Notes under the pieces: generated by a model
Told to the model about the DNA's origin: nothing
The model's input: only the letters and a program-made list of their open reading frames with translations
Databases searched by the model: none
Part shown: one piece after another, positions 16,503 through 56,850 of the stretch
How positions within the stretch are numbered: the first letter of the stretch is position 1
Layout: each line of letters opens with the position of its first letter
Program-made: the position numbers and the translations under genes
Assembly: GCA_030264375.1 (NCBI GenBank)
Contig: JASCQW010000032.1
Span: forward strand, 4,119,376-4,183,375
Source of the DNA: Carcharhinus longimanus
Lineage: Eukaryota
DNA length: 64,000 nt
Direction of reading: 5' to 3'

Positions 16503-16598
16503 CTTGACCACGACCTCAAACATGCTCATGAACTTCGCCAAGCTGCATTCAAGTTGTATGCCTCCCTTGGAGCAAATGACGAAGACATCCGGAAGAAG
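16503..16598 (+). CDS. ARMC8: ARMC8 exon (~12): [32 protein letters not shown]
   Basis: ttcag acceptor, gtgagt donor; 96 nt. Confidence 0.97.
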
Positions 16599-16664
16599 GT
16601 GAGTCTGGGAGAGGGGCGTCCCCCGGTCCTGGCAACCAACAGGCAGGGAGTGACGTCAACCTGA
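16599..16664 (+). CDS. ARMC8: Alternative C-terminus of the short isoform ARMC8-beta (read-through of the exon-12 donor): [21 protein letters not shown]
   Basis: In-frame continuation past the gtgagt donor to TGA 16662-16664; GC-rich relative to the surrounding intron; close to my recollection of the human beta tail [21 protein letters not shown]. Confidence 0.85.
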
Positions 16665-17058
16665 GAACAAGGTGAAGAGAATTAACAGTGACTTTACGAA
16701 AGAGCATAATCAGATCTGAAGAATGAATGGGATTGACACTCATTTGTCTAGAGAAATGAGTTGTGACGTGTTCATGTTGGAATGACAAGTACTGGTGTTT
16801 CCTGTGTTGAACCTGCACCGGATCCTTAAATTACATTCTTTGCATGAGTTCGTAACAGTAGTAACAAAATAAGCACTGTGAAGTGTAGTGTATAGTACTG
16901 ACTCACATAATGCAGTAGTACTGTAATGCCAGTTATATAAATGCTTGCCTACCTATCTGCTGCAAACCGGAAGTACTCAGCTTCTGTTTCTGTATCACTT
17001 TTAATTTGTGGCCTGCTGATGTGTTCATTTGTGTTGCTGATGTGCAAGTTTAATTGTA

Positions 17059-17064
17059 AATAAA
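17059..17064 (+). terminator. Candidate intronic polyadenylation signal (AATAAA) for ARMC8-beta
   Basis: AATAAA about 395 nt after the beta stop codon, followed by a GT/T-rich tract (gctggtagcttgttttct). Confidence 0.55.
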
Positions 17065-18277
17065 GCTTTGTGCAATGACATTGCTGGTAGCTTGTTTTCT
17101 GAATCTACAGTAAAGCAAAACACTGTTTCCAGATAACTTGAATAATGGCATTTAAAATGTAGTTGAATTTTTAATCCGTACACAGTGAGTGATAAGCCCA
17201 GAATGGCATCTTACCGTATCTCAAATAAGGGAGAACCGTGTTGTGATGCACATGTACCCATCAAGACTGAGAGCCACTAATGCTGGAAAATATGCATGCT
17301 TCCATATTGTCTGGAAATGTGATTGAAATGCCAACTTAAGAGTGTCCTTTTCCTGCAACAATGTGGTGTAATCAGTCTCATTTATTTCCTGTATTCTTTG
17401 TGAGCAAGATTGTCAAATTTAACAAAGTAATGCTGTGGACTTTGAAAAGAGTCTGCTCACGTTAATTTCCCCCTCCAGCAGTTGTCATCTCTGATTTAGA
17501 GTGAGGTCCTAGTATCTCACTGATTTGTTTAAAATCATTTCAGTTTTTTTAAATTTCAGGTTCAAAATACAGGAAATGGCATTTTGACCTTTTTTGTTCG
17601 CAAATTGCAACTTTGCAATCATCAGTTTCTAACAAAAATGAGTTGCCTACAGGAATAATAAATTAGGATGAGCAAATCGTAGATATATCAGAATTGGATC
17701 TTGGAGGTGAACAGACCTAATGCTAAACATGTAGACCCCCAATCTGTTGTTCTGTGAGTCTCCATTGTGCTTTTTCTGTGCTGGTTATGTTTGGTACAGA
17801 GAGAGTAATATTTAAGTATTGGTCAGGGCACCTGAAATGCCTTATTTATATAAAATGACTTTCATTGTGAGCAGTTACTACAAGTGTGTTTTTCAGCACC
17901 TTTGGGCAGAATTTGAGGATGCTTAAATTAATTGAGAGATAGGTGGGAGAAAGTGAAGAACATCCTTTTAAACAATTTTGAGATTAGAAAGCACCTACTG
18001 CACTAGAGGCTTTTGCGCAGTTATAGTGAAATCATTGTTATACCATGGTTCTTTTTTGTAATATTGGTGTAAAAGTATTTTAAGTTAACTTAATTAACTC
18101 AAATTATAGACTCAATGCTCAGGAAAAGGCTCTTTGCCCCACTTGCGCTGGCTCTACGTCTCCAGGTCTTGCTGTTCCTACATCCACTTTCAAATTTTAC
18201 TATTGTTATATTGTCACCTCATTCGTCCTGCTAAAGTGAATTATTTCACACTTCTGTGTTAATTTTTAAAAATACTT

Positions 18278-29343: not shown

Positions 29344-29426
29344 ATTATTGAGACTGAAAATATGATGGATCGAATTGTGACTGGCTTAGCTGAGTCTAGT
29401 ATCAAGGTGCGGTTAGCTGCTGTCAG
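29344..29426 (+). CDS. ARMC8: ARMC8 exon (~13): [27 protein letters not shown](R)
   Basis: tatag acceptor, gtatgg donor; 83 nt, phase 0/2. Confidence 0.96.
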
Positions 29427-30559
29427 GTATGGATGGACTCCTGAACTTTCCTGTCTGAAATACAATTTGATAGTTCTAAAACCAATATAGTGACTAGTAT
29501 TGTGTTGACTCGGCAGACACTGAATCTTTAATCAGTTTAGCAAATACTCCTGTAACATTTGCATGGGTAATAAAATAGAGAATGAAAAAGGGCCCAGATT
29601 TGCTACATAATTAGTTGGCTATTGTATTATTAANNNNNNNNNNNNNNNNNNNNNNNNNNNNNNNNNNNNNNNNNNNNNNNNNNNNNNNNNNNNNNNNNNN
29701 NNNNNNNNNNNNNNNNNNNNNNNNNNNNNNNNNNNNNNNNNNNNNNNNNNNNNNNNNNNNNNNNNNNNNNNNNNNNNNNNNNNNNNNNNNNNNNNNNNNN
29801 NNNNNNNNNNNNNNNNNNNNNNNNNNNNNNNNNNNNNNNNNGATAGTTTTGTGATTACATTTTCAAATTCTCATGTGCCTGGGGGGAAGCTTTTAGCTTT
29901 CATGATTTTTTTCTAGTGATTAAATCCAACAACCTTGTTGATCTGTGAATATTTGATTTAGTAAATTATTCTAAGATACATCTTAATGAGTGTAACTAGT
30001 TAGGCAAATTTCAGTTTAATATTGTTTTTGTGTAAGGTGCAGCTATGTACATTATATAGGTGGAGTGTACCTTGGTTGTTTTGAGTTGTAGTCTTGCATT
30101 AAGTGGATGAATGTTAGTTTGACTGGAGTAACCCTGAGTTAAGACATTGAAGGCTGATCCCAGGCATAGAGGACTTGAGACAAAATAAAAATTCAGATGT
30201 TGAATCTTTCGAAACAATTTGGGGAAGACCTCATAAGGTTCGTGCTAACATTCTTTAATTGTGTAGGAATAGTAAGTCCTCATGTTAAATTTTGATAGTG
30301 GGACAAAGAAGAAAGGTTTAAAATTAGTCTGACAGGTTTTATACTGATGTCAGGAAGTTGTTCTTGATCAATTGGATCAAGTTTATTCAAGAAACTATTG
30401 GACACTGCAAAAGTGGTTTGTAGGTAGGATAGACGGAACAACACCTTCATTTTTCTTGTTATCTCCTGATCTGTCATTACTAATACACAGTCAGACAGCT
30501 TGAATTTTGACACTGATCGTTTGGGCAGTTTAACTTTTAATGGCCAATCCTATTTTTGA

Positions 30560-43959: not shown

Positions 43960-44338
43960 GTATCATAGAACCCTACAGTGCAGAAGGAGGCCCTTCAGCC
44001 CATCAAGTCTGCACCAAACACAATCCCACTCAGGCCCTACCCCCATATCCCTACATGTCAATGTTTCTACAGTTTCCGTCTCTGATTCTTTGGTTGCTGG
44101 AAACAGTTTCTCCTTTATCAAAACCCCTTCGTAGTATTGAATGCACTCATTAAACCTCCCTTTGACCTTATCTGCTGTAAGGAGAACAATCCCAGTTTCT
44201 CCAATCTCTCCACATAACTGAAGGCCCTCAAATTTTGCTAAATAAAACATTCCGCGCACTCCAAGCTTTGATATTTTTCCTAAATTGTGGCACCCAGCAT
44301 TGGGCGCATACTGTATACTCCAATTTAAACCTAACTGG
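43960..44338 (-). mobile_element. V-SINE tail plus CR1 3' fragment
   Basis: catagaaccctacagtgcagaaggagg tail; ggagaacaatcccagtttctccaatctc CR1-like segment. Confidence 0.65.
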
Positions 44339-44339
44339 C

Positions 44340-45215
44340 ATTGAGAGAGGAGGGGGAGTGGCACTTTTGATTAGGGAAAATATCAGGGCAATTCTGAGAG
44401 GGGATATATCCGAGGGTTTGGCCACTGAGTCTGTATGGGTAGAACTGAGAAATAAGAAGGGGGAAATCATTTTGATAGGGTTGTACTCTTGATCCCCAAA
44501 TAGTTGGTGGGAAATTGAGGAGCAAATATGTAAGGAGATTACAGATAACTCCAAAAAAAATAGGATGGTAATGGTAGGAGATTTTAATTTTCCCAACATT
44601 GACCAGGACAACCATAGTATTAGAGGGTTGGATGAAGAAACATTTGTTGAGTGTATTCAGAAGGAATGTGGATGGCCCAACTAGAGAGGGGGCAAAACTN
44701 NNNNNNNNNNNNNNNNNNNNNNNNNNNNNNNNNNNNNNNNNNNNNNNNNNNNNNNNNNNNNNNNNNNNNNNNNNNNNNNNNNNNNNNNNNNNNNNNNNNG
44801 TAATGGTAGGAGATTTTAATTTTCCCAACATTGACCAGGACAACCATAGTATTAGAGGGTTGGATGAAGAAAAATTTGTTGAGTGTATTCAGAAGGAATG
44901 TGGATGGCCCAACTAGAGAGGGGGCAAAACTTGACCTCCTGTTGGGAAATAAGGAAGAGCAGGTGACAGAACTATTAGCGAGGGATTGCTTTTGGGCCAG
45001 TGACCATAATTCTACTAGTTTTAAGGTAACTATGGAGAATGATAGATCTGGCCCACAAGTTAAAACTCTAAATTGAGGCAAGGCCAATTTGATGGTATCA
45101 GGCAGGAACTTTCAAAAGTTAATTGGAGGAGTCTGTGGGAAGGCAAAGGGAAGTCTGGCAAAGGGAGGCTTTCAAAAGTGTGTTAACCAGGGTTCAGGAT
45201 AAGCACATTCCTCTG
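44340..45215 (+). mobile_element. CR1 LINE ORF2 APE-endonuclease fragment
   Basis: GGGVALLIRENI, ESVWVELRNKKG, VGDFNFPNI, PTREGAKLDLLLGN and SDHN motifs. Confidence 0.9.
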
Positions 45216-55559: not shown

Positions 55560-56300
55560 GCACACATACTTGACCTTTAATGGCAGTGATTAGATTTGTG
55601 GAAATAGGGCATATCCATGGCTACAAAAGGGATGAAAGAGGACATATTACCTTGGATATGTGGTCCCAATATGTCCATCATACTTGCAGCCTCCCCACTG
55701 AGAGAAGTCGACAAGGTCTAGTAGGACTTGACCACTACTTTGCTATAATGTTACCCCCATATGCGTATTCAAGATCCACAATCGAGATCAAAACTATTGT
55801 CTTGATGTTGAACAGGTAGCCAATGACACAGCTATGGCCCTCACTGCAATCAGTGATGAGATGGTTGCAATGCGCACTCTTGTGCTACAGAATCATATGG
55901 AGTTAGATTTTATCTTGGCAGTTCAGAAAGTTGCATCTATATACCTGACACTTAGGAAAACATAACCAATTTGGTCTTACACATTCGGAAGGAGGTGAAG
56001 AAACTTAAGCATCCACAACCTTAAGCAGTTGGTTCTCAGGCTGGTTGGGTTCCTTGGGGTTAGCTATCTTGCAGGGAGTCATACTCACCTGCATTGTGAT
56101 TCTGATAATAGTGGTAGTAGTGAATATGCTCAAATGCTGCTGTGCCCATTTAGTTAAGTCAACAGGAGGCATAGTGATGGCAGTTAGTGTAAGAAAGAAG
56201 AGAATCAGAGAGTCCAAACACTTAGTAAAGACCAAGATTAGTTACTTAGATACAAATAAGTGGCCTTATTTGGTACTTGGTCAGCAGCCAAAAGGGAGGA
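55560..56300 (+). pseudogene. env: Endogenous retrovirus env remnant (gamma-type envelope: SU C-terminus plus TM)
   Basis: FNGSD*ICGNRAYPWLQKG*KRTYYLGYVVP; heptad VANDTAMALTAISDEMVAMRTLV; immunosuppressive domain LQNHMELDFILA (55885-55920); SESCIYIPD; TM helix LAILQGVILTCIVILIIVVVVNMLKCCC; contains stops and frameshifts. Confidence 0.88.
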
Positions 56301-56850
56301 AATTGATGTAGGGAGCAAGAATAGGCTAATGAACACAACTATAGATTTAGGAACACTAACACAACACTAACTTTAGAATGAATGATCTTGGACTATGGGA
56401 ACTTAAGGCAGCCGGGGCTGTTGTTATAGAAGTCAGCTCTGTATGATTAACAAGTATTTTGAACTTAAAAGACACATTTGGAATTTACAAGATGGATGTA
56501 TTTTGCATTTGGTAACATCTTGTGAAATGTCAAGTCAGTCACCAGGCCCTGGTGGGAGAGGTGAGGAACAATAGATCTCCTGAAAAGCTGTAAAACTATC
56601 AGCCCAGGTTGAGAACAAGATGGCTACCAATGCTACCCTTATGACTAGGGTCATACAACTCAGGAGATAATGCAGGTGGTGAGCAGACATAAAGAATTTC
56701 TCAGAGTTAGATGAGACTCATGTGGGTTCAATTCAGTGGGAATCATTCTCCCATTTCACTGTCCAGCGTATTGAATTGCTAGGCAATTTAATAACAAATG
56801 CCATCCCATTAGGTCATGATGTGTGTTGTTATTGGCTGGAGTTAATGACA
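56290..56850 (+). mobile_element. Polypurine tract plus 3' LTR of the ERV
   Basis: PPT aaaagggaggaaa (56290-56302), TG at 56304, TATA-like cataaa ~56690, degenerate polyA aataac ~56790, GT-rich tract, ends ...gaca 56850 (end approximate). Confidence 0.7.

What the first reader, a model, noticed from the sequence alone, without database searches (positions are those of the whole stretch)
16599..17100. ARMC8-beta switch (intronic read-through tail plus polyA site) appears conserved in a cartilaginous fish
Seen: the exon-12 donor continues in frame as [21 protein letters not shown], followed by about 400 nt with no recognisable repeat and an AATAAA with a GT-rich downstream tract. Established: mammals make a short ARMC8-beta lacking the C-terminal ARM repeats, reported not to recruit the GID4 substrate receptor to the CTLH/GID ligase. 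My recollection of the human tail ([21 protein letters not shown]) differs at only 3 of 21 residues. Inference: this 'intronic' peptide and the alpha/beta switch date to the jawed-vertebrate ancestor and are under selection, either as a functional C-terminal motif or as an overlapping splice/polyA regulatory element.
Basis: partly seen in the sequence, partly recalled or inferred. Interest (0 to 1): 0.72.

Follow-up and report, generated by a model that had tools for sequence, protein, structure and literature searches.

The report
Ancient ARMC8-beta switch in cartilaginous fish
This cartilaginous fish carries the same read-through ending that makes the short ARMC8-beta protein in mammals, and a leftover copy elsewhere in its genome stops right behind the early poly(A) signal, so this switch, which likely sets how much of a protein-degradation machine can load its GID4 receptor, is likely as old as jawed vertebrates.

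Summary
Confirmed and extended. The ARMC8 exon 16503-16598 reads through its donor into a 21-codon tail (stop 16662-16664). The tail differs from human beta at 3 of 21 residues and from a skate at 1. Two frogs and tuatara keep the 21-residue tail; painted turtle has a drifted tail without the stop; 19 teleost read-throughs are unrelated. New evidence of use: a 415-nt copy of 16666-17080 sits inside a repeat on another contig (8 of 8 fetched sister copies lack it). It ends at a CA 15-16 nt after AATAAA 17059-17064 and is followed by an A-run, most likely a retrocopy of the polyadenylated RNA. Conservation continues about 125 nt past the stop in one unnamed vertebrate record, and tail changes are mostly non-conservative, so selection is more likely on the RNA than on the peptide (about 60:30). 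No read evidence and no dN/dS were obtained. In a human atlas this intronic site is regulated (usage 0.19 in naive B cells, 0.64 in plasma cells). Known kind (composite-exon intronic polyadenylation, known mammalian isoform); its age was not found in my paper searches or in this scan's notes.

The parts
16503..16598 (+). ARMC8 exon shared by alpha and beta (residues 347-378 in 673-aa numbering)
   Evidence: no amino-acid difference in 8 of 8 tail-bearing records
16596..16604 (+). splice donor used for alpha and skipped for beta; 7 of 9 match to the U1 consensus, not weak for this gene
   Evidence: 11 donor-like 9-mers scored 5-9, picked by a rough rule; consensus recalled
16599..16664 (+). beta-specific read-through tail, 21 codons plus TGA; 65% G+C, three G-runs
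16651..16658 (.). CRE-like palindrome inside the tail, the only one in the window; implied broken in several orthologues, so probably incidental
   Evidence: motif name recalled
16665..16789 (+). conserved, purine-rich first part of the beta 3' UTR
   Evidence: aligns to the stop-loss read-through of unnamed record P0004, 38.9 bits against a null maximum of 22.2 in 539 bins; 63% purine, 9 GAA
16665..17080 (+). beta 3' UTR; 16666-17080 is the part copied to G000:C190 (L001:4217-4628)
16884..17058 (+). five UGUA motifs upstream of the signal (16884, 16889, 16922, 16991, 17055); the last overlaps a Pumilio-type TGTAAATA
   Evidence: P 0.0065, but 1 of 8 other intronic AATAAA also has five; CFIm and Pumilio labels recalled
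17059..17064 (+). polyadenylation signal AATAAA, 460 nt after the donor
17079..17080 (+). inferred cleavage site (CA, 15-16 nt after the hexamer)
   Evidence: 3' end of the retrocopy followed by an A-run
29344..29427 (+). next alpha exon (residues 379-406), the spliced alternative

Best explanation
The stretch 16503-17080 is the composite last exon of ARMC8-beta: the donor at 16598/16599 is likely either spliced to the exon at 29344 (alpha) or ignored, in which case the RNA is likely cut and polyadenylated at 17079-17080, giving a protein predicted to lack the GID4-binding half, and the tail is likely conserved mainly because its RNA and the next 125 nt help make this choice. Shown: the sequence anatomy, the orthologous tails, the inserted copy ending at the CA with an A-run, and homology past the stop in one other record. 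Inferred: that the copy came from beta mRNA; that the shark makes beta protein today; that it fails to bind GID4 as human beta does. Also inferred, from recalled splicing knowledge and untested: G-runs and GAA-rich sequence just behind a normal-strength donor bind hnRNP/SR-type proteins that delay splicing, while UGUA motifs strengthen the signal, so that cleavage can beat both splicing across a 12.7-kb intron and U1 protection. The peptide is under some constraint too (length and frame), but probably as the weaker partner. Odds: beta-type polyadenylation real in this lineage about 0.93; RNA-level constraint dominant about 0.6.
For: Retrocopy: 89.4% over 416 nt, ends at 17080, then AATAAAAA; 9-mers with 8 or more A are 0.1-0.2% of local sequence. 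Its flanks are two halves of one repeat, contiguous in 8 of 8 sister copies fetched, with 0 of 386 insert positions filled. All 5 parent CpG have decayed in the copy against 2 the other way, so the window is the parent. Orthologues: skate 1, human 3, frog R. imitator 4, Myotis 4, tuatara 7 differences; frog A. truei 5 (read by eye); 22 records identical to the human form. RNA over peptide: P0004 aligns over 37 codons past the stop with at least 16 substitutions in 111 nt, while its intron-11 part does not align (14.6 bits, null mean 12.7, maximum 16.0). The stop is lost (Trp) in turtle and P0004. Of 16 residue changes 13 score BLOSUM62 0 or less, while the upstream exon is invariant; 15 of 17 changes are one step from the window's own codon. 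The tail is flexible in the mouse crystal structure, 5-9 residues resolved (PMC9932110). The human site is a measured, regulated intronic poly(A) site (PMC5928244 supplement 4).
Against: No DNA of any orthologue was in hand, so synonymous sites were not measured; the codon-state test is weak (P 0.047 under a too-simple null). UTR conservation rests on one unnamed record whose clade is not known; the 10 turtle residues after the stop are not significant (282 of 2123 null bins score as high). The tail keeps 21 codons and the same stop in shark, skate, two frogs, tuatara and mammals, and its only indel (turtle) is a whole codon, whereas the P0004 UTR alignment has frame-shifting gaps; this favours some protein-level selection, although frame-shifted tails would be missed by a protein search. 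The retrocopy starts after the stop and crosses no splice junction, so it does not itself link the poly(A) end to the upstream exon, and no clear target-site duplication was found (at most 3-4 nt). No RNA structure supports a donor-masking hairpin (z from -0.45 to 0.48).
Confidence: 0.6

Rival explanations
1. Same beta switch, but the 21 residues are what selection keeps: a short C-terminal motif (partner binding, degron, or cap on the last ARM repeat) that gives beta a role beyond lacking GID4 binding. The UTR conservation would be a separate, ordinary 3' UTR element.
For: Length and stop position are fixed across shark, skate, two frogs, tuatara and mammals; 22 records are identical to the human tail; the one indel keeps the frame; G4, E5, G6, L11, Q16 and T21 are invariant in the 9 rows and in P0244.
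Against: Mostly non-conservative changes (L3P, P9L, V18E, R15M, T19M, S20P) and two stop losses; flexible in the crystal; V1 and S2 are forced by the donor sequence; teleosts do without it; two unnamed records stop after three residues.
Confidence: 0.28
2. The conserved block is a DNA element (enhancer or internal promoter with CRE-, GC-box- and ETS-like sites) that overlaps the read-through frame, possibly driving a separate 415-nt polyadenylated RNA from 16666; the retrocopy would then be a full-length copy of that RNA.
For: The only CRE palindrome of the window lies at 16651-16658, and an ETS-like site at 16967. The retrocopy starts 2 nt after the stop, 8 nt after the palindrome, a coincidence I cannot explain.
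Against: Four of the 17 observed changes (V18E, T19A, T19M, S20P) imply a broken palindrome (deduced from amino acids). The human beta protein is established and abundant. 5' truncation is the usual fate of retrocopies (recalled).
Confidence: 0.08
3. No selection: slow evolution of cartilaginous-fish DNA plus the donor consensus keeps an intronic frame that looks conserved, and the poly(A) site is leaky background.
For: An open frame of 21 codons is common by chance; many teleost gene models also end in read-through, so such models are cheap.
Against: 18 of 21 identity to human against a mean of 6% for teleost read-throughs; the neighbouring intron-11 end does not align even where the UTR does; CpG kept in the parent and lost in the copy.
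Confidence: 0.04

Closest known systems
Mammalian ARMC8-beta (human Q8IUR7-6, mouse PDB 8A1I)
   Same: Same breakpoint after residue 378 (364 in the shorter numbering), same 21-residue tail at 18 of 21, same loss of the C-terminal ARM half. Human beta enters CTLH but does not recruit GID4 (PMC8567238).
   Different: Described only for mammals in the passages I read. Shark protein expression and GID4 exclusion are untested. Human has two listed intronic sites about 1 kb apart; here only the first is supported.
Composite-terminal-exon intronic polyadenylation (Singh 2018 atlas, PMC5928244)
   Same: Unused donor, read-through to an intronic AAUAAA, truncated protein; human ARMC8 is in that atlas.
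   Different: The atlas is human and reports conservation only as average phastCons near cleavage sites; here one event is traced to cartilaginous fishes, with its tail and UTR.
Immunoglobulin mu secreted/membrane switch (recalled, not looked up)
   Same: Read-through of a donor into a roughly 20-codon tail with a nearby poly(A) site, competing with splicing; favoured in plasma cells, as human ARMC8-beta is (0.19 to 0.64).
   Different: The mu tailpiece has a proven protein function and its donor is suboptimal; here the donor is of normal strength and no tail function is known. No homology is claimed.
5'-truncated processed retrocopy (for the C190 copy)
   Same: Ends at the cleavage site, A-run, inserted into an unrelated repeat, CpG decay.
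   Different: Covers only the 3' UTR, so no intron loss can be seen; target-site duplication at most 3-4 nt and uncertain.

Membership tests
ARMC8-beta isoform (orthologue) | Lies in the single ARMC8 orthologue | tested here: met
   Exons map in order through the window; the upstream exon has one match in the genome.
ARMC8-beta isoform (orthologue) | Diverges from alpha at residue 378/364 into a 21-residue tail with a stop | tested here: met
ARMC8-beta isoform (orthologue) | Beta mRNA and protein are made in this species now | tested here: inconclusive
   Only the retrocopy, a record of past germ-line RNA; no read evidence.
ARMC8-beta isoform (orthologue) | Assembles into CTLH and does not bind GID4 | not testable with these tools
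   Shown for human in PMC8567238; inferred here from the shared truncation point.
Composite-terminal-exon intronic polyadenylation | A donor that is used in the long isoform lies inside the terminal exon | tested here: met
   Donor at 16598/16599 and downstream exon at 29344.
Composite-terminal-exon intronic polyadenylation | AAUAAA/AUUAAA with cleavage 10-30 nt downstream | tested here: met
   AATAAA 17059-17064; retrocopy ends 15-16 nt later at CA. The 10-30 nt range is recalled.
Composite-terminal-exon intronic polyadenylation | U/GU-rich downstream element | tested here: inconclusive
   No richer than 2 of 8 other intronic AATAAA.
Composite-terminal-exon intronic polyadenylation | One RNA runs from the exon through the donor to the poly(A) tail | tested here: inconclusive
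   Database models in skate, frogs, tuatara and mammals join exon and tail, but the retrocopy does not reach the exon and no reads were seen.
Processed retrocopy (C190 copy) | Insertion into an unrelated site | tested here: met
   Empty site in 8 of 8 sister repeat copies fetched.
Processed retrocopy (C190 copy) | Ends at the poly(A) site with an untemplated A-run | tested here: met
   5-8 nt A-rich run, depending on where the target begins.
Processed retrocopy (C190 copy) | Target-site duplication | tested here: inconclusive
   None of 7 nt or more; 3-4 nt possible.
Processed retrocopy (C190 copy) | Intron loss | not testable with these tools
   The copy holds no coding part.

The most novel reading that the evidence does not exclude
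The roughly 190 nt behind this donor (tail plus first UTR block) are a jawed-vertebrate RNA switch, kept since before sharks and tetrapods split, that overrides a normal-strength donor in a cell-state-dependent way. It would rise with secretory differentiation like the immunoglobulin mu switch and so turn down GID4-dependent Pro/N-degron ubiquitination by CTLH in plasma and T cells. The 'conserved peptide' would be the shadow of that RNA element, and teleosts would be natural deletion mutants.
Probability: 0.25. Interest if true: 0.7.

Novelty: new member of a known kind. Interest (0 to 1): 0.45.

Why it matters
Reviews treat ARMC8-beta as a mammalian isoform of open function (PMC9180843, PMC12687426; passages read). 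Deep conservation says it is not splicing noise: a way to build CTLH ligase without its GID4 receptor has likely been kept since the shark-tetrapod split. It also points to the sequence to mutate (tail plus 125 nt), offers natural variants (teleost loss, turtle stop loss), and links to a human data set in which the site triples in plasma cells. GID4 recruitment is of interest for targeted protein degradation, so the alpha/beta ratio could set where that works (inference).

Tried and rejected
Sequencing runs: no RNA holder listed (22 of 24 rows hold half or more of the words, none on record as RNA). Laying 4 of those runs on 16675-18050 placed 0 contigs in 4 of 4, which the tool says can be false; neither result is used as evidence. 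No related genomes are held. RNA folding of five segments from 16575 to 17100 shows no structure beyond shuffles, so a donor-masking hairpin is not supported. AlphaFold of tuatara beta on a 15-row alignment gave mean pLDDT 52 with residues 256-346 under 50: uninformative, no fold search run. Frameshift-aware tests of 12 other read-through peptides against the region: 10 were within the null (5-42 of 63 bins as high); two (P0019 18.7 bits, P0175 21.9 bits) beat all 63 bins but stay under the 22.2 maximum of the larger null and were treated as chance. The crow model (VSLGRLVW...) is not significantly related (5 of 63). A mobile-element origin of 16666-17080 was rejected: two copies only, CpG decay in the C190 copy, and homology next to the tail in P0004. 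CRE as the conserved function was rejected (see rival 2). Contamination was rejected: most exons are closer to chimaera than to bowfin and the tail is closest to skate. PMC4584193 (passages) has nothing on beta. No complex prediction was run, since no binding claim is made for the tail.

Full report
Observation. The window holds most of ARMC8 on the + strand. The exon 16503-16598 ends in AAG|GTGAGT. Unspliced, it continues for 21 codons, [21 protein letters not shown], to TGA at 16662-16664. The first AATAAA of the 12.7-kb intron is at 17059-17064; the next alpha exon starts at 29344. Most exons match chimaera better than bowfin and the tail is closest to a skate, in line with a cartilaginous fish. 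The upstream exon has one match in the 2.68-Gb genome. The exon number 12 was not checked.

The tail is the mammalian beta tail. The human/chimpanzee record P0133 differs at positions 12-14 only. PDB 8A1I, mouse beta, has the same tail after two extra residues. Among 263 proteins fetched, 118 read through at this point and 22 are identical to the human tail. Differences from the window tail: skate Amblyraja radiata (XP_032879440.1) 1, frog Ranitomeya 4, Myotis 4, tuatara 7, frog Ascaphus 5 (by eye); all keep 21 residues. Painted turtle has 6 differences, one a whole-codon gap, and Trp at the stop; the unnamed record P0004 has 3 and also Trp. Nineteen teleost read-throughs average 6% identity (maximum 15%) with lengths of 11-47. 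No beta record appeared for chimaera, gar, bowfin, sturgeon, chicken, Xenopus, coelacanth or lamprey, so these are untested; the reedfish model ends at the first residue. Only the best 120 of 951 hits were listed. A tail shared by elasmobranchs and tetrapods implies presence in their common ancestor, with loss in teleosts (inference).

The poly(A) site has left a fossil. A search of the own genome with 16675-17150 found one other match (again). It is L001:4217-4628 on contig C190, 89.4% identical to window 16666-17080, with 39 substitutions in 411 aligned sites. Homology stops at the CA at 17079-17080, 15-16 nt after the hexamer, and AATAAAAA follows; 9-mers with 8 or more A make up 0.1-0.2% of local DNA. 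The flanks are the two halves of one repeat family (48 matches, 40 of 97 candidates scored). I fetched 8 copies chosen because both halves lay side by side; in 8 of 8 the halves are contiguous and none of 386 insert positions is filled. All 5 parent CpG have decayed in the copy, with 2 changes the other way. The simplest reading is a 5'-truncated retrocopy of an RNA polyadenylated at 17080 in an ancestor's germ line. Limits: it has no coding part or splice junction, the target-site duplication is 3-4 nt at best, and its start 2 nt after the stop codon is unexplained. No sequencing-read evidence was obtained either way.

What is under selection. P0004 has lost the stop, so its translation exposes its UTR. 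The 47 residues after the Trp align, with frameshifts allowed, to window 16673-16789 at 38.9 bits; 0 of 539 null bins reach this (mean 12.2, maximum 22.2). The alignment covers 37 codons with at least 16 substitutions, while the same record's intron-11 part does not align. Conservation therefore continues into non-coding sequence. The record is unnamed; its tail has the tetrapod-type residues 13-14 and shares the stop-to-Trp change with turtle, but its clade is not established. Turtle's own 10 residues after the stop are not significant (282 of 2123). Within the tail, 13 of 16 residue changes score BLOSUM62 0 or less, the upstream exon is invariant in 8 of 8 records, and 15 of 17 changes are one step from the window's codon; 6 of 7 codon-dependent cases fit (P 0.047, weak null). 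In the crystal the tail is flexible, with 5-9 residues resolved (PMC9932110, passages). Against this, length and stop are fixed from shark to human, the one indel keeps the frame, and the UTR alignment does contain frame-shifting gaps. I put RNA-dominant constraint at about 0.6 and peptide-dominant at about 0.28. No orthologous DNA was available, so dS is unmeasured.

Mechanism. The donor matches the U1 consensus at 7 of 9, normal for this gene, and the signal is 460 nt away, where U1 tends to suppress cleavage (PMC5928244 passage). Frequent read-through should then need help. Candidates are three G-runs in the 65% G+C tail, nine GAA in the purine-rich first UTR block and five UGUA before the signal (1 of 8 other intronic AATAAA has as many). 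Their protein partners are recalled, not tested. No RNA structure stands out. The product would stop after residue 378 plus the tail. Human beta assembles into CTLH, stabilises it, cannot recruit GID4 and leaves HBP1 ubiquitination intact (PMC8567238, section 8 part 1 of 2). The human site is regulated: usage of chr3:137964478-137964523 is 0.19 in naive B cells, 0.30 in blood B cells, 0.45 in blood T cells and 0.64 in plasma cells (PMC5928244 supplementary file 4, all 7 ARMC8 rows seen; ARMC8 does not occur in its main text). That this site is the orthologue of the shark site is inferred from its retained coding fraction (0.575 of 2091 nt).

Known and new. Beta is known in mammals (PMC6680376 passages; PMC9180843 and PMC12687426 passages), and composite-exon intronic polyadenylation is a common class. 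NCBI already has a skate model ending in the tail. I found no paper on the age or sequence conservation of beta: searches for ARMC8 with intronic polyadenylation (1 listing), alternative polyadenylation (3), ARMC8beta with zebrafish (7), polyadenylation/intron/isoform (4) and conserved-element terms (25 of 1,267 listed, none with ARMC8). I saw only listings for most of these; Kobayashi 2007 and subscription journals were not read, and other supplements may list the event. This scan's notes hold no such finding (one unrelated fungal Gid5 note, not used).

Verdict. A real, ancient and probably regulated isoform switch, supported by an unusual piece of genomic evidence. It is a new member of a known kind. 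Interest 0.45; 0.7 if the RNA-switch and immune-cell reading holds (probability 0.25).

Noticed in passing
L001:4217-4636 (G000:C190:43331216-43331635): The retrocopy begins 2 nt after the beta stop codon, so it equals the 3' UTR almost exactly. Chance truncation, a stall at the G+C-rich tail, or a free 3' UTR RNA are all open.
   Followed up: partly
PDB 8A1I chain A: The deposited mouse beta sequence has two extra residues (II, the start of the next alpha exon) before the tail, unlike the natural beta records fetched; probably a cloning leftover. It may account for part of the 5-9 resolved 'beta-specific' residues. The cloning supplement was not read.
   Followed up: partly
P0001, P0121, P0122: Skates have short 'ARMC8-like' models covering only two exons; one has the full tail, one stops after four tail residues, one ends differently. 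They may be partial duplicates or assembly fragments.
   Followed up: no
P0218, P0220: Two unnamed records stop after three tail residues, one base change from the window's fourth codon; possible lineages that lost the tail.
   Followed up: no
P0234-P0242: Divergent, unnamed, invertebrate-like ARMC8 sequences also break at the same codon with unrelated read-throughs, suggesting the intron is older than the tail.
   Followed up: no
window 55574-56308: Open-frame pieces resembling the transmembrane part of a retroviral-type envelope gene lie in a later ARMC8 intron (resemblance judged by eye, no search run).
   Followed up: no
window 44181-45073: Fragments resembling a CR1-type LINE endonuclease region, partly duplicated around assembly gaps (judged by eye).
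   Followed up: no
L002-L009: The host of the retrocopy is an old dispersed repeat (64-77% identity of the host copy to 8 sister copies); its family was not identified.
   Followed up: partly
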